From a virus (Duplodnaviria > Heunggongvirae > Uroviricota > Caudoviricetes): a DNA stretch of 5,638 nt. The number at the start of each line of letters is the position of its first letter. Position 1 is the stretch's first letter. Below, one piece after another: positions 1 through 5,638 of the stretch. The DNA lies in the IMG/VR virus record IMGVR_UViG_3300029181_000111; one strand, written 5' to 3'. The notes under the pieces were generated by a model, which was given only the letters and a program-made list of their open reading frames with translations, did not search any database and was not told the origin of the DNA. A program made the translations under genes and the position numbers.

Positions 1-51
1 CTGACACCGTTGAATTATCTCGCCAAACAGCGACAAAAAGTGATGTGGTGA
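1..51 (+). CDS. Possible 3' end of an upstream AraC-family regulator gene (envY-like); 5' part lies outside the window
   Basis: Frame 1 reads LTPLNYLAKQRQKVMW then TGA at 49-51. The TP..Y spacing resembles the C-terminal G-x-TP-x-x-Y tail of AraC/XylS proteins (compare [10 protein letters not shown] at the AppY C-terminus in this window). Only 16 codons are visible, and frame 3 is also open here, so this is weak. Confidence 0.3.
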   Translation: MTPLNYLAKQRQKVMW

Positions 52-96
52 AGGGCAAAGCGGAAACGGATAAGACGGGCATAAATGAGGAAGAAA

Positions 97-141
97 TGGC
101 GCGCCCTGCAGGATTCGAACCTGCGGCCCACGACTTAGAAG
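97..141 (-). other. 3'-terminal 45 nt of tRNA-Arg(UCU) (argU) without the 5' half: prophage attachment-site core (attR-type remnant)
   Basis: Reverse complement of 97-141 is CTTCTAAGTCGTGGGCCGCAGGTTCGAATCCTGCAGGGCGCGCCA: anticodon loop with UCU, T-arm GGTTCGAATCC, acceptor 3' strand and CCA. Sequence beyond 141 (tRNA 5' side) does not continue as a D-arm or acceptor 5' strand, so this is a fragment, not a gene. Lambdoid prophage DLP12 is known to integrate into argU. Confidence 0.85.
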
Positions 142-464
142 TTCCTAGAACGACATTTTAAGTCAACAACTTACCGCGCCATCTCTGCGCTCACACGTCC
201 CACTACCTCAAAACATGTAAAGCCTTGCAAGCCATTGCGAGGCCTTATGTGTCTCAGTTTTGTCCCTCTTTTTTGTACTAAAAAACATAGTAATTGAGGA
301 TAAACCTCATGCTATTTTCGCTTATATGCCTCTAAAGGCATGGCACTTAAATAGATAAAAGCACCACAAAAGCATAAAAAAACCACACAGTAAAACCGAA
401 ATATGAAACAATAACAGATAATTAAACCAAAAACAGATAGCGCATTGTGATAATCATTCAATAC

Positions 465-481
465 TAAACAAAATATAAACA
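465..481 (-). promoter_or_regulatory. Candidate PhoP box (direct repeat TGTTTA-N5-TGTTTA read on the minus strand) upstream of ompT
   Basis: Plus strand 465-481 is TAAACAAAATATAAACA; reverse complement is TGTTTA-TATTT-TGTTTA, a perfect match to the (T/G)GTTTA-N5-(T/G)GTTTA PhoP consensus. It sits about 85-100 bp upstream of the ompT ATG. ompT is reported to be PhoPQ-regulated; function of this particular site is inferred. Confidence 0.45.
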
Positions 482-553
482 GTGGAGCAATATGTAATTG
501 ACTCATTAAGTTAGATATAAAAAATACATATTCAATCATTAAAACGATTGAAT

Positions 554-557
554 GGAG
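554..557 (+). promoter_or_regulatory. Shine-Dalgarno sequence (GGAG) for ompT
   Basis: GGAG lies 7 nt upstream of the ATG at 565. Confidence 0.7.
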
Positions 558-564
558 AACTTTT

Positions 565-624
565 ATGCGGGCGAAACTTCTGGGAATAGTCCTGACAACC
601 CCTATTGCGATCAGCTCTTTTGCT
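565..624 (+). other. ompT: OmpT signal peptide (predicted cleavage after Ala20, SFA/STE)
   Basis: N-terminal basic residues (R2, K4), a hydrophobic core, and A-x-A-like SFA before the mature N-terminus STETLSF. Confidence 0.8.
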
Positions 625-1518
625 TCTACCGAGACTTTATCGTTTACTCCTGACAACATAAATGCGGACATTAGTCTTGGAACTCTGAGCGGAAAAACAA
701 AAGAGCGTGTTTATCTAGCCGAAGAAGGAGGCCGAAAAGTCAGTCAACTCGACTGGAAATTCAATAACGCTGCAATTATTAAAGGTGCAATTAATTGGGA
801 TTTGATGCCCCAGATATCTATCGGGGCTGCTGGCTGGACAACTCTCGGCAGCCGAGGTGGCAATATGGTCGATCAGGACTGGATGGATTCCAGTAACCCC
901 GGAACCTGGACGGATGAAAGTAGACACCCTGATACACAACTCAATTATGCCAACGAATTTGATCTGAATATCAAAGGCTGGCTCCTCAACGAACCCAATT
1001 ACCGCCTGGGACTCATGGCCGGATATCAGGAAAGCCGTTATAGCTTTACAGCCAGAGGTGGTTCCTATATCTACAGTTCTGAGGAGGGATTCAGAGATGA
1101 TATCGGCTCCTTCCCGAATGGAGAAAGAGCAATCGGCTACAAACAACGTTTTAAAATGCCCTACATTGGCTTGACTGGAAGTTATCGTTATGAAGATTTT
1201 GAACTCGGTGGCACATTTAAATACAGCGGCTGGGTGGAATCATCTGATAACGATGAACACTATGACCCGGGAAAAAGAATCACTTATCGCAGTAAGGTCA
1301 AAGACCAAAATTACTATTCTGTTGCAGTCAATGCAGGTTATTACGTCACACCTAACGCAAAAGTTTATGTTGAAGGCGCATGGAATCGGGTTACGAATAA
1401 AAAAGGTAATACTTCACTTTATGATCACAATAATAACACTTCAGACTACAGCAAAAATGGAGCAGGTATAGAAAACTATAACTTCATCACTACTGCTGGT
1501 CTTAAGTACACATTTTAA
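565..1518 (+). CDS. ompT: Outer membrane protease OmpT (omptin family, protease VII), 317-aa precursor
   Basis: ORF of 317 aa with good RBS. The translation matches E. coli OmpT as I recall it, including signal peptide MRAKLLGIVLTTPIAISSFA, the catalytic Asp pair in VDQDWMD (precursor D103/D105) and the Asp/His pair in SDNDEHYD (precursor D230/H232), and a C-terminal aromatic residue (…GLKYTF) typical of beta-barrel outer membrane proteins. Confidence 0.97.
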   Translation: MRAKLLGIVLTTPIAISSFASTETLSFTPDNINADISLGTLSGKTKERVYLAEEGGRKVSQLDWKFNNAAIIKGAINWDLMPQISIGAAGWTTLGSRGGNMVDQDWMDSSNPGTWTDESRHPDTQLNYANEFDLNIKGWLLNEPNYRLGLMAGYQESRYSFTARGGSYIYSSEEGFRDDIGSFPNGERAIGYKQRFKMPYIGLTGSYRYEDFELGGTFKYSGWVESSDNDEHYDPGKRITYRSKVKDQNYYSVAVNAGYYVTPNAKVYVEGAWNRVTNKKGNTSLYDHNNNTSDYSKNGAGIENYNFITTAGLKYTF

Positions 1519-1534
1519 GAACGCCAACTAAAAT

Positions 1535-1563
1535 TTCCCCGAGGTGAAAATCGCCCCGGGGAA
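1535..1563. terminator. GC-rich hairpin in the convergent ompT/appY intergenic region; possible transcription terminator
   Basis: TTCCCCG (1535-1541) pairs with CGGGGAA (1557-1563), 7 bp with a 15-nt loop, 17 bp after the ompT stop. There is no U-tract on the plus strand; on the minus strand it is followed by AUUUUAG. Weak as a classical intrinsic terminator. Confidence 0.3.
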
Positions 1564-1767
1564 TAACTAGCCATTTCAATGTAACAATTAACCCTTAAAA
1601 TAAACCCAGAAGGTTATTAACTAAATCACATAGAAAACCATCAATTATAGTATGTATAAAATAGGCGACAGCAACCCAATTACAAATTAATGGTTCCAGA
1701 ATATCACATCAAAAAAAACGCTGTATAATATTATAATTAACATGTAGACAACTTGTAATAAACATTA

Positions 1768-2517
1768 TCAGTCAATTGTTTTGTTTATTCCATCTGTGAC
1801 GCCGATTATTTTCTCAAAATAATGAGATGGCGTGACACCATAATAATCTTTAAATGCACATATGAAATATGAAGTACTGTTATAGCCACATTTCTGGGCT
1901 ACGACATTGATAGAATAAGAGTTTGAAGTTATGAGTTTTTTTGCATACCTCATCCTAGTATCTCTCAATATTTCAGTAAATGACGTTCCTTCATCCCTTA
2001 ATCTTTTTTTTATTAAACTTTCACTCGTATAAATCAATTCCGCAATATCTTTTAAATGCCATTGCCGCTCAATATTAAAACTGATTATTCCAGTAATTTT
2101 ACAGGTAAATGTATTTATATTTGTTAGTATAAATGAATTTACACTTTCGCGTTTTTTGAACATGGCAAGTAAGGATATACATAGTCTTTCTTTTAACCAA
2201 AGGGAGTGTGAGTCTGCTATTTTAATCCCTTCAAACAGAGAAAAAACAAGCGATAATGGAGGTTCCTCTTCAGCAATATAGCCATTCTTATCAAGAGTAA
2301 ATTTGCCAGGCAGCTCATTATTCACGTCGATAAAAAAGGATAAACATGTTTTCTTATCTATATCAACAATTCTTAGTTTAGAGGGGCATACTGGTAACTC
2401 CCTTCTAATTTTGTCGCTTACAATAAACAATGAATTTTTTTTGAACGAGATAACTCTCCTGTTTATAATTAAATCAAATGATTGACAGATGAAAACTACG
2501 GAGCAAACATAATCCAT
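1768..2517 (-). CDS. appY: AraC-family transcriptional activator AppY (C-terminal HTH domain), 249 aa
   Basis: 249-aa ORF with ATG start and an AGGTG SD-like sequence upstream. The C-terminal region has AraC-type HTH signatures (…[25 protein letters not shown]…). It is convergent with ompT as in K-12 DLP12, and the sequence matches my recollection of AppY. The gene is very AT-rich. Confidence 0.9.
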
Positions 2518-3062
2518 CTTGCACCTATCATAAAATTAAAACAAGTTGATAGTAGTCAAATAACAACCAATTAAATACACAATCATAATCAGGATGATGT
2601 GCATTTATATTTTTATACACAAAATTATAGTTTGCAAATTTTAATAAATTTCATTTAAGATTAAATTATTATATGTATGTTGTTTTTTATTCTAACTTAT
2701 TTCAAAGTTACATTTTTCAACGCTTACTATGCTTTTTATTAACATAAACTCACTACAACGCACCTGAAACCTCTTGCTATATATATGTCAACCGTTTGAA
2801 TTTAAAATAAAAAGAGTATCATTTTTACTTGCATTTCTTATCAAGTCACATTCAACAACAGTAAAAAAACATTATTAGAACCATTCAATTAACAAAAAAC
2901 CAACATCCAGCTTGCTTAATTTTTCTTTATTAAACGATATTGAAAATCAATTGATAAAATACATCTAAACAACCTTTTGGGGCGCAAAAGCATAACATCA
3001 AACAAACAAATAACACACCGAAAAAACTCACAATTAATAACCTATGATATACATACTGTTTA

Positions 3063-3323
3063 TTATGGTTGAATAAGCCACTCGATATCTGGTGCTACGG
3101 AAGTGTCCACACGGTTTAGCAGCACCCGATACTTTTTTCAGGCTTCCAGCAACGATCTTTCTTCCTCCGTTGCGATTTCCAGATCTACAGCATCCTGCAG
3201 TGGCGCAATATACTCACTGAATTCCTGGATGTAGAACTGTGTGGTGACGGTCTTCCAGCCATTCGGCTCCTGCTGTATTGAAGCATACCAGGCTATTTCA
3301 ATATCGCTATGCTGCGGCAGCAT
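3063..3323 (-). pseudogene. tfaX: Tail fibre assembly protein remnant (tfaX-like); C-terminal Tfa homology interrupted by an in-frame TGA
   Basis: The 61-aa ORF 3138-3323 ends …[25 protein letters not shown], matching the intact Tfa in this window (…[29 protein letters not shown]…). At the position of Tfa Trp (TGG) this copy has TGA. Reading on in the same frame gives [20 protein letters not shown]… to a TAA at 3063-3065. The N-terminal part is diverged. Confidence 0.7.
3077..3219. repeat. Copy 1 of a 143-bp imperfect direct repeat (3' end of tfa-family genes)
   Basis: By hand alignment, 3077-3219 against 4124-4266 shows about 17 mismatches over 143 bp (about 88% identity) with no indels. 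Confidence 0.85.
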
Positions 3324-3461
3324 TTAACCCCTTGTAATTCATTGCCATAATTGATTTAATTCACAAATAAAACTATAACATGGTGAAATTAATAAAAAAA
3401 CACAGATGATGGGGCTAGAATTTACACACCACTTACCCTAAAGCTTTATGACTGGTGGGTT

Positions 3462-4046
3462 TTGGGAGTATCAAATCGGCTTGCATGGGGATGTCCTACA
3501 AAGGAACACCTTCTTCCACACTTTCTGGAACATTTAGGTAACAACCATCTGGATATTGGTGTTGGAACTGGGTTTTACCTTACTCACGTACCTGAGAGTA
3601 GTCTGATATCTTTAATGGATTTGAACGAAGCTAGCCTGAACGCGGCATCTACAAGGGCTGGGGAATCAAAAATTAAACATAAAATTAGCCATGATGTTTT
3701 TGAACCTTATCCCGCGGCGTTACATGGTCAATTTGATTCCATTTCCATGTCTTACCTTCTTCACTGCCTGCCTGGAAATATATCTACAAAAAGCTGTGTA
3801 ATACGCAATGCGGCGCAGGCCTTAACTGACGATGGAACTCTATACGGAGCCACAATTCTTGGCGATGGAGTTGTGCACAATAGCTTCGGTCAAAAACTGA
3901 TGCGCATTTACAATCAGAAAGGCATCTTTTCAAACACAAAAGATTCCGAAGAAGGCTTAACACATATACTCTCAGAGCATTTCGAGAATGTTAAAACCAA
4001 GGTTCAAGGTACTGTAGTAATGTTTTCCGCTTCAGGAAAAAAATAG
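3462..4046 (+). CDS. ybcY: Class I SAM-dependent methyltransferase (ybcY-like); start codon uncertain, possibly 5'-truncated or a pseudogene
   Basis: Motif I LDIGVGTG, an acidic residue after beta-2 (LISLMDLNE) and an FDSISMSYLLHCL motif-II-like segment. The ORF track starts at TTG 3462 with a poorly spaced SD. The same frame is open back to 3396 (…PLTLKLYDWWVLGVS…) with no in-frame ATG or GTG. ATG-ATG at 3406-3411 is one nucleotide out of frame. The position between tfa and tfaX matches ybcY of K-12 DLP12. Confidence 0.6.
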   Translation: MGVSNRLAWGCPTKEHLLPHFLEHLGNNHLDIGVGTGFYLTHVPESSLISLMDLNEASLNAASTRAGESKIKHKISHDVFEPYPAALHGQFDSISMSYLLHCLPGNISTKSCVIRNAAQALTDDGTLYGATILGDGVVHNSFGQKLMRIYNQKGIFSNTKDSEEGLTHILSEHFENVKTKVQGTVVMFSASGKK

Positions 4047-4086
4047 CATCCAACCGCAGCATGTTCTTGCTTAAGACGTGCTGCGG
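4038..4086 (-). terminator. Candidate intrinsic terminator downstream of tfa (minus-strand sense)
   Basis: Stem CCGCAGCATG (4054-4063) pairs with CGTGCTGCGG (4077-4086), 10 bp with one G-U pair and a 13-nt loop. On the minus strand it is followed by UUGGAUGCUAUUUUUUU. It lies between the convergent stops of tfa (4101) and ybcY (4046). Confidence 0.35.
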
Positions 4087-4100
4087 CATAATCCCAATGA

Positions 4101-4685
4101 TTACTCCCTGACAGGGTTCGTAGGCCACTCAATATCAGGTGCAGTTGATGTATCAACACGGTTCAGCAACACCCGATATTTTTTCCAGGCTTCCAGCAAT
4201 GAGGTTTCTTCCTCCGTTGCGATTTCCAGATCTACAGCATCCTGAAGTGGCGCAATATGCTCACTGGCTACCTGCATCAGGCTGTTTTTTGTTTCTTCCG
4301 CCTCCCGAATCCGGAACAGTTTTTCTGCTTCTGCATCTTTCACCCAGGCTGTACCGTTCCACTTCTGAAACTCCCCTTCCGGCGATAACCAGGTAACATT
4401 TTCCGGTAACGGACCGAGTTCAGAAATAAATAACGCGTCCCCTGACGCTACGTCATAAACCGTTTTACCCCGATGATCTTCAACGAGATGCCACGATGAC
4501 TCATCACTGTTGAAAACAGCCACGAAGCCAGCTGGAATATCTGGCGGTGCAATGTCGGTACTGTTTGCTGGCAGACCTGTATGAGGCGGAATATATGCAT
4601 CACCTTCACCAATAAATTCATTAGTTCCGGCCAGCAGATTATAAATTTTTATGGTCCGTGGTTGTTCACTCATTCTGAATGCCAT
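4101..4685 (-). CDS. tfaD: Tail fibre assembly protein Tfa (lambda Tfa-like), 194 aa, apparently intact
   Basis: The 194-aa ORF ([24 protein letters not shown]…[11 protein letters not shown]) closely matches lambda Tfa as recalled. Its ATG overlaps the upstream stf stop in the TAATG arrangement typical of stf-tfa. The symbol is assigned by position in DLP12 and is uncertain. Confidence 0.9.
4124..4266. repeat. Copy 2 of the 143-bp imperfect direct repeat (3' end of the intact tfa)
   Basis: See copy 1. This copy lies within the tfa coding sequence. Confidence 0.85.
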
Positions 4686-5548
4686 TATGCAAGCCTCACA
4701 ATATAGTTAAATGCGATGTTTTTGACGGTGTTTTCCGCGTTACCAGCAGCGTTAACGGTGATGGTGTGTCCATGTGAGCCAATCGCAACGGAGTGCGTAT
4801 GAGCACCAATACCGACAGTATGTGCATGTGCGCCTGCGCTTGCAGCAGTGCCGGACAGCGAGTGGGTATGAGCACCATCTGATGATGTCTTCCCTGCATT
4901 ACGAGTCTGGCCACTACCGCTTGTTGTGCTCATAATCCCCGCGCTCAGATTTGAAATCGCGGTATAACCATTAGGAAAAATGCTCGTATTCGTGCCACCA
5001 AATGCACCGGAACTCTTGTGTTGGTGCGCACCGGCACTATTTGCAGTCCCGCTAATACTATGGGTATGCGCCCCGGTGTTATTCGTGGATTTGGTTCCGT
5101 AATCAAACGACGATGTGTTTTTCGTCCCCAAATCCGTACTGGATGCGCTGGCGCTGTGGGTGTGCGATTTAATGCCGTCCTGTTCCTGAGACAATACGGC
5201 ACGACCACTGGCGGGTTTGCCCTTAATCGTCCAGCCACGCATAAGGGTGTTGCGCTGCTTATGCTCTATAAAGTAGGCATAAACACCCAGCAGCATTTTG
5301 GAATAACCGACACGGGCAGACTTCACCACATTCACCTCACGGATGTAGTCGCTGCCCATCGCATTCATGATGGCCCGCTGAAAGGGCAGTGTTTCCCAGC
5401 GCCCTTCCTGGTATGCGGATTCTTTCGGGAGATAGTAATTAGCATCCGCCCATTCAACGGCGGTCTGTGGCTCCGGCCTGAACAGTGAGCGAAGCCCGGC
5501 GCGGACAAAATGCCGCAGCCTGTTAACCTGACTGTTCGATATATTCAC
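4685..5548 (-). CDS. In-frame chimeric ORF: N-terminal ~103 aa of terminase large subunit (lambda gpA-like) fused to the C-terminal ~184 aa of a side tail fibre (Stf) receptor-binding region; deletion scar of a defective prophage
   Basis: The N-terminus [102 protein letters not shown] matches lambda gpA as recalled, with a GTG start overlapping the Nu1 stop. After …RNTL the sequence switches to Stf-like His/Gly/Ser-rich repeats ending …[31 protein letters not shown]. The junction is near nt 5240. It may correspond to the aaaD/stf remnant of K-12 DLP12, which I am not sure of. Confidence 0.85.
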
Positions 5549-5638
5549 TCAGCAACCCCGGTATCAGTTCATCCAGCGCGGCTGCTTTGTTCATGGCTTT
5601 GATGATATCCCGTTTCAGGAAATCAACATGTCGGTTTT
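5523..5638 (-). CDS. nohD: 3' end of terminase small subunit gene (lambda Nu1 homologue); 5' part lies outside the window
   Basis: The minus-strand frame reads …[37 protein letters not shown] with TAA at 5523-5525, matching the lambda Nu1 C-terminus as recalled. The stop overlaps the start of the downstream A-like ORF, as in lambda. Confidence 0.8.

What the first reader, a model, noticed from the sequence alone, without database searches (positions are those of the whole stretch)
3063..4277. Imperfect 143-bp direct repeats of tfa 3' ends bracket the methyltransferase gene
3077-3219 and 4124-4266 are about 88% identical and in the same orientation. The downstream copy belongs to the intact tfa. 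The upstream copy is a decayed tfa (TGG to TGA nonsense at the Trp codon) fused to unrelated N-terminal sequence. The ybcY-like methyltransferase lies between them on the opposite strand. This looks like a past tail-fibre cassette duplication or exchange that captured a foreign gene, and the repeats are a substrate for homologous deletion of the intervening ~900 bp.
Basis: seen in the sequence. Interest (0 to 1): 0.4.

Follow-up and report, generated by a model that had tools for sequence, protein, structure and literature searches.

The report
Tail-fibre chaperone repeats flanking prophage methyltransferase
Two diverged copies of the end of a phage tail-fibre chaperone gene flank a broken methyltransferase gene in a defective E. 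coli prophage; this is ordinary phage gene shuffling, and a few natural strains have lost the methyltransferase by recombination between the two copies.

Summary
Window 3077-3219 and 4124-4266 are direct repeats, 125/143 identical (87.4%), far beyond chance. The locus is the right end of a DLP12-type lambdoid prophage: ompT, appY, tfaX remnant, ybcY methyltransferase, tfaD. It is identical to E. coli K-12 over 2900-4539.

The repeat encodes the conserved C-terminal domain of Tfa. Mismatches concentrate at third codon positions, so the copies are two diverged tfa alleles brought together by exchange, not an in-place duplication.

tfaX is a chimera. Codons 2-37 come from the start of an unrelated 79-aa phage gene family (phrog_3893). 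The rest is a tfa C-terminus with TGG changed to TGA. The methyltransferase is also broken, by a 2-bp deletion.

The same unit occurs in 1,488 of 5,426 complete E. coli genomes, and in working lambda-like phages and P2-like prophages.

The predicted deletion exists. Two strains equal a near-identical cassette-bearing locus minus 1,049 bp, with the crossover in the only 40-bp perfectly identical block. Their single tfa inherits the TGA.

This is annotated, ordinary prophage mosaicism of low interest.

The parts
3077..3219 (-). Upstream repeat copy: the tfa C-terminal-domain coding sequence inside the tfaX remnant.
   Evidence: 125/143 identical to 4124-4266. Pfam Caudo_TAP profile positions 75-105 match the 61-aa ORF.
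4124..4266 (-). Downstream repeat copy: the 3' end of the intact tfaD.
   Evidence: It lies inside the 194-aa Caudo_TAP ORF.
3063..3323 (-). tfaX chimeric pseudogene. ATG at 3321-3323, in-frame TGA at 3138-3140, and the original TAA stop at 3063-3065.
   Evidence: Translation. PGAP in identical K-12 and GPEC1446 DNA annotates a tail fiber assembly protein with an internal stop and missing N-terminus. Intact 88-89-aa relatives match phrog_2341 (E 3.6e-60).
3220..3323 (-). Non-Tfa 5' part of tfaX ('Xn'), derived from the N-terminus of a phrog_3893-type 79-aa gene. It keeps that gene's Shine-Dalgarno sequence (AAGGGG, 3328-3333) and ATG.
   Evidence: tblastn hits in Klebsiella phage Kp4882-3 and phage Ayreon. 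The 79-aa ORF is L019 4004-4243. BLASTP gives 19/36 identical, E 5e-12. The 79-aa protein matches phrog_3893 over its full length (E 1e-37), and the Xn part of the 89-aa ORF matches phrog_3893 at E 1e-6.
3138..3140 (-). TGA nonsense codon replacing the Trp codon (TGG in tfaD at 4185-4187).
3066..3144 (-). Segment of tfaX that follows the resident DLP12-type tfa 3' end (...VAPDIEWLIQP*). It carries three private transitions at 3117, 3122 and 3138. From 3145 onward tfaX is identical to the cassette type of other phages.
   Evidence: Register table. Single-tfa loci L007 and L009 end in the same LIQP* plus the same AT-rich flank.
3158..3197 (.). The longest perfectly identical block between the repeats (40 bp; its partner is 4205-4244). 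This is the crossover interval of the natural deletion alleles.
   Evidence: Mismatch profile. L008 and L120 switch from tfaX type to tfaD type inside this block.
3324..3379 (.). 56-bp divergent spacer between the tfaX ATG and the methyltransferase ATG. It holds a promoter-like site, TTAACC-16-CATAAT with an upstream TG, at 3324-3351 on the plus strand.
   Evidence: The spacer is 55/56 identical between distant cassettes.
3380..4046 (+). ybcY-type class I SAM-dependent methyltransferase, here a pseudogene. A 2-bp deletion after 3393 creates a stop at 3407-3409. The long ORF resumes at 3462.
   Evidence: Pfam Methyltransf_12 scores 37.8 bits against a cutoff of 30. PGAP marks it 'frameshifted'. 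It matches phrog_2132.
4054..4086 (.). G+C-rich hairpin between the converging methyltransferase and tfaD genes. It is shared with phage lambda downstream of tfa and marks the right edge of the minimal cassette.
   Evidence: Fold energy -22.1 kcal/mol, z -4.5. Lambda homology runs from about 4052 to 4700. 23 of 87 surveyed loci end homology at 4086 and 2 more at 4092.
4101..4685 (-). tfaD, an intact 194-aa tail fibre assembly gene.
   Evidence: Pfam Caudo_TAP E 3e-45. phrog_105 E 4e-101. 92% DNA identity to lambda tfa.

Best explanation
The two repeats are the DNA for the conserved C-terminal (trimerisation) domain of the tail fibre assembly protein Tfa, present twice because of modular exchange between temperate phages. 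The proposed history has five steps.

Step 1 (inferred). In an ancestral phage the methyltransferase sat in the cargo slot after the tail fibre genes, reading divergently from a small 79-aa gene of the phrog_3893 family. An illegitimate join fused the first ~36 codons of that gene, in frame, to the last ~52 codons of a tfa. This produced the unit: hairpin, MT, 56-bp spacer, chimeric 89-aa ORF.

Step 2 (shown by comparison). This unit has spread among lambda-like and P2-like E. coli phages. Its homology boundaries fall repeatedly inside or at the end of tfa C-terminal sequence on both sides. That is expected if crossovers in this conserved block move the cassette onto new tail-fibre modules and new right arms.

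Step 3 (shown). In the DLP12-type lineage the right-hand crossover lay at 3145-3152. tfaX therefore ends in the resident tfa 3' end and the AT-rich flank leading to appY.

Step 4 (shown). In this defective prophage both cargo ORFs have since decayed: TGG to TGA in tfaX and a 2-bp deletion in ybcY.

Step 5 (shown in natural variants). Homologous recombination between the direct repeats deletes the 1,047-1,049 bp in between and leaves one hybrid tfa.

The repeat has no function of its own. It is a scar that doubles as a recombination substrate.
For: The repeat is real. The locus is identical to K-12 DLP12 over 2900-4539 and carries the PGAP annotations for tfa remnant, methyltransferase and tfa.

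Tfa has a variable fibre-binding N-domain and a conserved helical C-domain (PMC9608196, citing North et al. 2019). The repeat matches Caudo_TAP profile positions 75-130.

Mismatches by codon position are 4/3/13. The Xn part matches the phrog_3893 N-terminus. That family is a conserved 79-aa gene across Enterobacterales. It sits next to a UmuD-like gene and divergent from cargo genes such as gtr glycosyltransferases or an acyltransferase, close to the integrase.

The cassette is present in 1,488 of 5,426 E. coli genomes. It is also in phages PhiR26_1, PhiR29, 2G7b, ev243 and Kati and in P2-like prophages beside smpB.

Homology ends recur at 3077 or 3094 on the left and at 4086, 4198, 4220 or 4246 on the right. 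Of 86 loci, 25 have a full tfa on the MT-stop side, 34 have only a tfa C-terminal fragment, and 27 have none.

The methyltransferase is intact in 86 of 91 loci. Only about half of the tfaX-type ORFs keep a native length.

For the deletion: the synthetic junction query is found in one piece in 9 genomes. L008 equals L119 (LH50-c) minus 1,049 bp, with 3 mismatches in 1,523 bp on the left and 1 in 1,097 bp on the right. The switch falls inside the 40-bp identical block, and the TGA is inherited. L120 has the same junction.
Against: No extant locus was found with the methyltransferase next to an intact 79-aa gene. The Enterobacter homologues (61-64% identical) are chromosomal, beside a Peptidase_M3 gene, with no Xn nearby. 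Step 1 therefore rests on a 36-residue, 53%-identical match.

For 7 of the 9 single-tfa loci (the L007 and L009 types) no near-identical cassette-bearing parent was found. They may be ancestral rather than deletion products.

The 89-aa chimeric ORF keeps its start, Shine-Dalgarno sequence and length in a copy that is 14% diverged at the nucleotide level, with dN/dS 0.22. A function for it is therefore not excluded.

No experiment here measures ongoing recombination.
Confidence: 0.8

Rival explanations
1. The upstream copy is not a relic but a working small gene. The 89-aa chimeric 'mini-Tfa' (phrog_2341) would act together with the methyltransferase as a two-gene cargo module, for example by using the Tfa trimerisation domain to interfere with fibre assembly of competing phages. 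The window would simply hold an inactivated copy.
For: The ORF has a good Shine-Dalgarno sequence and ATG, and it is always 56 bp from the methyltransferase start. It is a recognised 88-aa PHROG family. An allele with 86% nucleotide identity in P2-like prophages keeps exactly 89 codons, with dN/dS 0.22. About half of 102 copies are native length.
Against: About 25% of copies are truncated by several independent frameshifts, deletions or nonsense codons, and about 18% have a replaced C-terminus. By contrast the adjacent methyltransferase is intact in 86 of 91 loci.

The low dN/dS sits in the Tfa-derived part (0.18, dS 0.63). That part can be inherited from functional tfa genes by recombination. 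The Xn part gives 0.42 from only 9 substitutions.

Deposited phage genomes 2G7b and Kati carry disrupted copies. The fibre-binding N-domain is absent.
Confidence: 0.08
2. The structure is a local tandem duplication of the tfa 3' end, made in this prophage, into which a foreign methyltransferase gene later inserted.
For: The A-B-insert-B layout is also what a duplication followed by an insertion would give.
Against: The copies differ at 12.6% of positions, with a strong third-codon-position bias. That pattern indicates divergence under protein selection, not decay after duplication.

The same cassette with the same internal joints occurs in unrelated phage backbones and at other chromosomal sites. 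The upstream copy is a mosaic of resident-type and cassette-type sequence.
Confidence: 0.04
3. The repeated sequence is a small-RNA gene (Rfam RF02111, IS009) present in two copies.
For: cmscan gives IS009 at 4144-4342 on the minus strand with 227.8 bits (gathering score 117), and at 3097-3300 with 110 bits.
Against: Both hits lie in the sense direction inside tfa reading frames. Substitutions between the copies follow codon positions. The second hit is below the gathering score, and its 5' half is aligned to the non-homologous Xn with many broken pairs. [quoted passage not shown]
Confidence: 0.03
4. The two tfa ends are remnants of an invertible tail-fibre segment of the Mu G, P1 C or e14 P type.
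For: Relatives carry a pin-type DNA invertase, and opposed tfa genes, between the tail fibre genes and the methyltransferase (phage Kati; L014-L017).
Against: The copies are direct repeats, not inverted. The window has no invertase gene and no alternative fibre C-terminus. In Kati the invertase lies outside the cassette.
Confidence: 0.02

Closest known systems
E. coli K-12 DLP12 prophage right end: tfaD, ybcY, tfaX, appY, ompT
   Same: K-12 is 100% identical over window 2900-4539, including the TGA in tfaX and the frameshift in ybcY. The gene names tfaX and ybcY are used in the literature.
   Different: K-12 lacks window 4540-5240, so its tfaD is truncated at the 5' end and fused to a terminase fragment. 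In the window tfaD is complete. I found no paper describing the repeat as a recombination substrate.
Phage lambda stf-tfa module, and exchange of tail-fibre genes through the conserved Tfa C-terminal domain
   Same: tfaD plus the downstream hairpin is 92% identical to lambda tfa (orf-194). Tfa has a variable N-domain and a conserved C-domain. Tail-fibre mosaicism among lambda, P2, Mu and P1 is established knowledge (Hendrix and Duda 1992; Haggard-Ljungquist et al. 1992; Sandmeier et al. 1992; cited from memory).
   Different: Lambda has a single tfa followed by b-region genes. Here a methyltransferase cassette with a second, chimeric tfa end follows it.
Morons, or lysogenic-conversion cargo, in the slot between the tail fibre genes and the attachment site
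   Same: The methyltransferase is on the opposite strand and has lower G+C (41-43%, against 47-49% for tfa). It has a promoter-like site of its own and a hairpin. It is absent from related phages, and it occupies the place where gtr or acyltransferase cargo sits in other prophages.
   Different: In 59 of 86 surveyed loci this cargo gene is bracketed on both sides by pieces of the same conserved structural gene. That allows it to be lost, and probably gained, by homologous recombination.
Invertible tail-fibre segments (Mu G/Gin, P1 C/Cin, e14 P/Pin)
   Same: They also hold two tfa-type genes near the tail fibre gene. Some relatives of this locus carry pin.
   Different: Those systems use inverted copies, invertase crossover sites and an invertase gene. 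None of these is present here.
Rfam RF02111 IS009
   Same: The family model covers the tfa 3' region that includes the repeat.
   Different: The matched sequence is protein-coding and in the sense direction. Only the tfaD copy passes the family threshold.

Membership tests
Tail fibre assembly protein, Pfam PF02413 Caudo_TAP | A match to the whole profile above the gathering score. | tested here: met
   tfaD at 4101-4685: 153.9 bits, profile positions 1-130 of 131.
Tail fibre assembly protein, Pfam PF02413 Caudo_TAP | Two-domain build: a fibre-binding N-terminal domain plus a conserved C-terminal helical domain. | tested here: not met
   tfaX matches only profile positions 75-105 (75-130 in intact relatives). 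Its first 35 codons are not Tfa-related. It also has an in-frame TGA.
phrog_2341 (88-aa phage ORF of unknown function) | A full-length match to the 88-position profile with an open reading frame. | tested here: inconclusive
   An intact relative (L014 5001-5270) matches positions 1-88 at E 3.6e-60. The window copy has the same sequence but is stopped at codon 62.
phrog_3893 (79-aa gene upstream of UmuD-like genes) | A full-length match. | tested here: not met
   Only residues 3-37 of the 89-aa ORF match profile positions 2-36 (E 1e-6). The rest of the family sequence (…NWHWSPRQANQWIEHY…NPNGGL) is absent. This is a fragment, not a member.
Class I SAM-dependent methyltransferase | A Rossmann-type methyltransferase domain above the Pfam threshold, and an intact ORF. 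| tested here: inconclusive
   The domain is present: Methyltransf_12 scores 37.8 bits against a cutoff of 30. The ORF is frameshifted by a 2-bp deletion. The substrate is unknown. The best solved relatives are UbiG and juvenile-hormone acid methyltransferase at only E ~1e-3.
Moron (autonomous cargo gene) | Its own promoter and terminator, atypical composition, and presence or absence among related phages. | tested here: inconclusive
   There is a promoter-like site at 3324-3351, but such sites are no more frequent here than in shuffles. The hairpin at 4054-4086 has no T-run on the plus strand. G+C is 41-43%, against 47-49% in tfa. Presence or absence among relatives is shown. Transcription was not testable here.
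Substrate for RecA-type homologous deletion | Direct orientation, and a perfectly identical block at least as long as the minimal efficient processing segment (about 25 bp; established knowledge, Shen and Huang 1986, from memory). | tested here: met
   The copies are direct repeats with a 40-bp identical block at 3158-3197 and 4205-4244. Natural deletion alleles have their crossover inside this block.
Invertible tail-fibre segment (Gin/Pin/Cin type) | Inverted crossover repeats, opposed fibre and tfa gene sets, and an adjacent invertase gene. | tested here: not met
   The repeats are direct. No resolvase or invertase ORF occurs in the window.
Rfam RF02111 IS009 small RNA | A score at or above the gathering threshold (117 bits), and a non-coding transcript. 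| tested here: inconclusive
   4144-4342 scores 227.8 bits and 3097-3300 scores 110 bits. Both lie in the sense direction within tfa frames with codon-patterned divergence. Transcript status is not testable here.

The most novel reading that the evidence does not exclude
The chimeric 89-aa ORF next to the methyltransferase may be a functional cargo protein. It consists of the N-terminus of a phrog_3893 protein fused to the Tfa trimerisation domain. It could act as a decoy that co-assembles with, and poisons, the Tfa chaperones of superinfecting phages. In that case the pairing of MT and mini-Tfa would be a two-gene module, and the copy in this window only an inactivated one.
Probability: 0.06. 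Interest if true: 0.6.

Novelty: already known. Interest (0 to 1): 0.18.

Why it matters
It matters little beyond bookkeeping. The locus is the annotated tfaD-ybcY-tfaX region of the K-12-type DLP12 prophage, and the process is standard phage mosaicism.

Three by-products are useful.
- The 'unrelated' head of tfaX can be traced to a named phage gene family.
- The conserved Tfa C-terminal coding block is shown acting as a natural homology arm through which a cargo gene is lost, and probably moved between lambda-like and P2-like phages.
- The Rfam family IS009 appears to describe tfa coding sequence rather than an RNA gene.

Tried and rejected
- ARAGORN found no tRNA. The attR tRNA relic shows only as a sub-threshold Rfam tRNA hit.
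- NCBIfam gave nothing for the methyltransferase, the mini-Tfa or tfaD.
- PADLOC gave only a weak mad2 hit, E 0.0033, which I treated as noise.
- The PDB sequence search gave only generic methyltransferase hits at E ~1e-3, and nothing credible for the 79-aa protein.
- A search for a full-length parent of tfaX among 5.8 billion proteins returned only short ORFs that begin with MLPQHS… and many decayed variants.
- More distant methyltransferase homologues in Enterobacter are chromosomal and have no Xn or tfa nearby. They do not reveal the pre-fusion context.
- The simple terminator scan found none in 2900-4300. The hairpin was found by folding.
- Searches for near-identical cassette-bearing parents of the L007-type and L009-type single-tfa loci failed. 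The best were 97.7-97.9% identical, so the direction of change is open for those.
- The apparent two-piece matches reaching window 4266 in Kati-type records were an artefact of the repeat matching twice.
- I rejected the invertible-segment, tandem-duplication and small-RNA readings. The reasons are given under the rival explanations.
Full report
**What the window is.** The ORFs and Pfam hits give this order: omptin OmpT (565-1518, +), an AraC-type regulator (1768-2517, -), a 61-aa Caudo_TAP fragment (3138-3323, -), a class I methyltransferase (+), a 194-aa Caudo_TAP protein (4101-4685, -), and an ORF that fuses a terminase gpA N-terminus to a tail-fibre C-terminus (4685-5548, -). Against 5,426 complete E. 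coli genomes, window 2900-4539 is 100% identical to K-12. There PGAP annotates appY, a tail fiber assembly pseudogene (internal stop, missing N-terminus), a frameshifted class I SAM-dependent methyltransferase, and a second tail fiber assembly gene. These are the K-12 DLP12 genes appY, tfaX, ybcY and tfaD (gene names from my own knowledge; tfaX and ybcY also appear in papers).

**Checking the observation.** At offset 1047, positions 3077-3219 and 4124-4266 share 125 of 143 bases (87.4%). This is the top-scoring ungapped segment in the window, with score 89 against 11-14 in shuffled sequence. The minus-strand frame through the upstream copy reads [85 protein letters not shown]. tfaD reads …[54 protein letters not shown]. 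The stop is TGA at 3138-3140 where tfaD has TGG. The methyltransferase lies between the copies on the other strand. Two corrections apply. The interval between equivalent points of the repeats is 1,047 bp, not about 900. The methyltransferase is also broken: compared with intact 222-aa copies it lacks two bases after 3393 and stops at 3407-3409.

**What the repeat encodes.** Tfa proteins have a non-conserved N-terminal domain that binds the fibre and a conserved C-terminal helical domain that drives trimerisation (PMC9608196, summarising North et al. 2019). The repeat corresponds to Caudo_TAP profile positions 75-130, which is that conserved C-terminal domain. Over a codon-aligned 144-nt stretch (3078-3221 and its partner) the copies differ at 20 positions, distributed 4/3/13 over codon positions 1/2/3. 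Eleven codon differences are synonymous and 5 are non-synonymous. The copies therefore diverged as working tfa genes and were later placed side by side. An in-place duplication followed by decay would not give this pattern.

**The 'unrelated' head of tfaX.** A search of 5.8 billion proteins found no full-length Tfa containing the first 35 residues. It returned only short ORFs starting MLPQHS…, together with many frameshifted or truncated versions. PHROGs places the intact 89-aa form in its own family, phrog_2341, and shows a second hit of residues 3-37 to phrog_3893. A tblastn search with the 38-residue head found diverged copies in phage Ayreon and in Klebsiella phages. In Klebsiella phage Kp4882-3 the match is the start of a 79-aa ORF that continues with non-Tfa sequence and is followed by a UmuD-like gene. 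BLASTP gives 19/36 identical, E 5e-12. The 79-aa protein is a full-length phrog_3893 member (E 1e-37). The family keeps a constant 79 residues across Klebsiella, Raoultella, Enterobacter, Citrobacter, Salmonella, Erwinia and Pantoea. In prophages it sits between an oppositely oriented cargo gene (gtr glycosyltransferases or an acyltransferase) and the integrase. tfaX is therefore a chimera: the ribosome-binding site, start codon and ~36 codons of a phrog_3893-type gene joined in frame to the last ~52 codons of a tfa. I infer that the methyltransferase once lay divergent from such a gene. I did not find that arrangement intact.

**The cassette is widespread and pre-formed.** Window 2900-4700 is matched at 80% coverage or better in 1,488 of 5,426 E. 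coli genomes, at several chromosomal sites. It also occurs in deposited phage genomes. PhiR26_1 has J, lom, stf, tfa, intact ybcY, a 101-aa tfaX-type ORF, a hydrolase-like gene and ompT. 2G7b and ev243 have a different fibre module. Kati has stf, tfa, pin invertase, a ynaE-like ORF, ybcY, tfaX, appY, ompT and the integrase. The cassette is also present in P2-like prophages beside smpB, and in prophages with an invertible fibre segment near trp.

Across 87 loci from species-representative genomes and IMG/VR, the block containing the methyltransferase ends at recurrent points. On the left these are 3077 (the tfa stop) or 3094. On the right they are 4086 (just past the hairpin) or 4198, 4220 and 4246 inside the tfa C-terminal block, or the block runs on through a whole tfa. 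On the methyltransferase-stop side, 25 of 86 loci have a full tfa, 34 have only a tfa C-terminal fragment with at least five different truncation points, and 27 have none. Bracketing of the methyltransferase by tfa ends is thus a property of the cassette in 59 of 86 contexts, not of this prophage alone.

The methyltransferase ORF is intact in 86 of 91 loci. Among tfaX-type ORFs about 52 of 102 keep a native length, about 18 have a replaced C-terminus, and about 26 are truncated.

Between two distant cassettes the methyltransferase is 98.7% identical, the spacer is 55/56 identical, and the 89-aa ORF is only 85.9% identical. Its dS rises from 0.17 in the head to 0.63 in the Tfa part. This is the signature of repeated recombination in the tfa-derived segment.

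**This locus is itself a recombinant.** In register, the window's tfaX is identical to the cassette type (PhiR26_1, NCCP13717) from 3145 to 3323. From 3066 to 3144 it follows a different type, which ends …VAPDIEWLIQP* and continues into the AT-rich spacer toward appY. The same ending and flank belong to full-length single tfa genes in DLP12-site prophages that lack the methyltransferase (L007, L009). The window differs from L007 in that stretch only by three transitions, at 3117, 3122 and 3138 (the last makes the TGA). The simplest history is that a DLP12-type phage with one tfa acquired the cassette through a crossover at 3145-3152, and its old tfa end then decayed.

**The predicted deletion exists.** I built the expected junction (2877-3076 joined to 4124-4323) and searched it. 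Nine genomes hold it in one piece at full coverage, in three sequence types. All nine have J, lom, stf, one tfa, the spacer, appY and ompT at the DLP12 site.

In EM18-18-42 (L008) the single tfa is annotated with an internal stop. It is identical to the window's tfaX from the flank up to 3197, including the TGA and the cassette-type bases at 3153-3157. It is tfaD type from 3198 onward.

Its closest relative in the collection, LH50-c (L119), has the full tfaX, intact methyltransferase and tfa structure. L008 equals L119 minus 1,049 bp. There are 3 mismatches in 1,523 bp on the left and 1 mismatch in 1,097 bp on the right. The switch falls within the 40-bp block (3158-3197 and 4205-4244), the longest perfectly identical stretch between the repeats. 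WGI31CT (L120) has the same junction and stop.

Near-identity on both sides makes deletion far more likely than an insertion from a donor that happened to carry the same tfa allele. A side effect is that the only remaining tfa inherits the nonsense codon.

For the other seven genomes (L007 and L009 types) the best cassette-bearing relatives are only 97.7-97.9% identical. These may be older deletions or the ancestral state.

**Rivals.** A functional 'mini-Tfa' is not excluded, because the start site, length and linkage to the methyltransferase are conserved and dN/dS is 0.22. It is weakened by the many independent disruptions and by the recombinational origin of the low dN/dS. A local tandem duplication is contradicted. 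An invertible segment is contradicted by the direct orientation and the lack of an invertase. Rfam IS009 hits both copies (227.8 bits and 110 bits, gathering score 117), but the matched sequence is tfa coding sequence read in the sense direction.

**Verdict.** It describes an already annotated K-12-type locus and a well-understood kind of event, so interest is low.

Noticed in passing
window 5241-5243 (terminase/stf joint), compared with K-12 locus L003 5638-5640: The window equals K-12 plus 701 extra bases (4540-5240). Everything else, 1-4539 and 5241-5638, is 100% identical. The terminase-side breakpoint is the same to within a 3-bp 'ATA' microhomology in both, but the tail side differs: stf in the window and mid-tfaD in K-12. 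Two deletions sharing one endpoint is unexpected. No complete E. coli genome in the collection holds the window's joint in one piece.
   Followed up: partly
window 108-191 (-): A partial tRNA-like sequence gives a sub-threshold Rfam tRNA hit (24.8 bits, model positions 9-63), and ARAGORN finds nothing. It lies beyond ompT and is probably the prophage attR relic of the tRNA-Arg integration site (pauD in K-12, from memory).
   Followed up: partly
window 4144-4342 (-) and 3097-3300 (-): The Rfam family RF02111 'IS009' matches tfa coding sequence on the sense strand. The family looks like a protein-coding fragment rather than an RNA gene.
   Followed up: partly
window 3991-4128 (-): RefSeq annotates a 45-aa ORF overlapping the methyltransferase 3' end, the hairpin and the tfaD stop as 'nucleocapsid protein' or 'hypothetical protein'. 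It has no PHROG match and is probably a spurious call.
   Followed up: partly
L005 (phage Kati), L004 (PhiR26_1), L006 (2G7b): Deposited lambda-like phage genomes carry ompT as cargo, and Kati also carries an appY-like regulator, next to the integrase. Kati has essentially the whole DLP12 right arm: int, a tRNA fragment, ompT, appY, tfaX and ybcY.
   Followed up: partly
tfaX-type ORFs in IMG/VR loci: The same Trp-to-stop truncation (a 61-aa product) occurs on two different allele backgrounds (…SEYIAPL…EERSLLEA* and …SEHIAPL…EENSLLEA*). This means either a recurrent TGG-to-TGA change or spread by recombination.
   Followed up: no
L033-L036 (Enterobacter), methyltransferase at 3001-3657: The nearest non-phage homologues of the methyltransferase (61-64% identical) are chromosomal genes converging on a Peptidase_M3 gene (oligopeptidase A-like). 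This is a possible source lineage for the phage cargo gene.
   Followed up: partly
window 2520-3062: The appY-tfaX spacer has only 24-28% G+C. A published study describes it as a 'promoter island' with divergent transcription (PMC4469952). It is conserved in 835 genomes and in phage Kati.
   Followed up: no
L018 (phage Ayreon) 3786-4099: Ayreon keeps a tfa 3'-end remnant, the hairpin, a short trace of the methyltransferase 3' end and a diverged, truncated Xn, but no methyltransferase. This is a separate way in which the cassette has been gutted.
   Followed up: no
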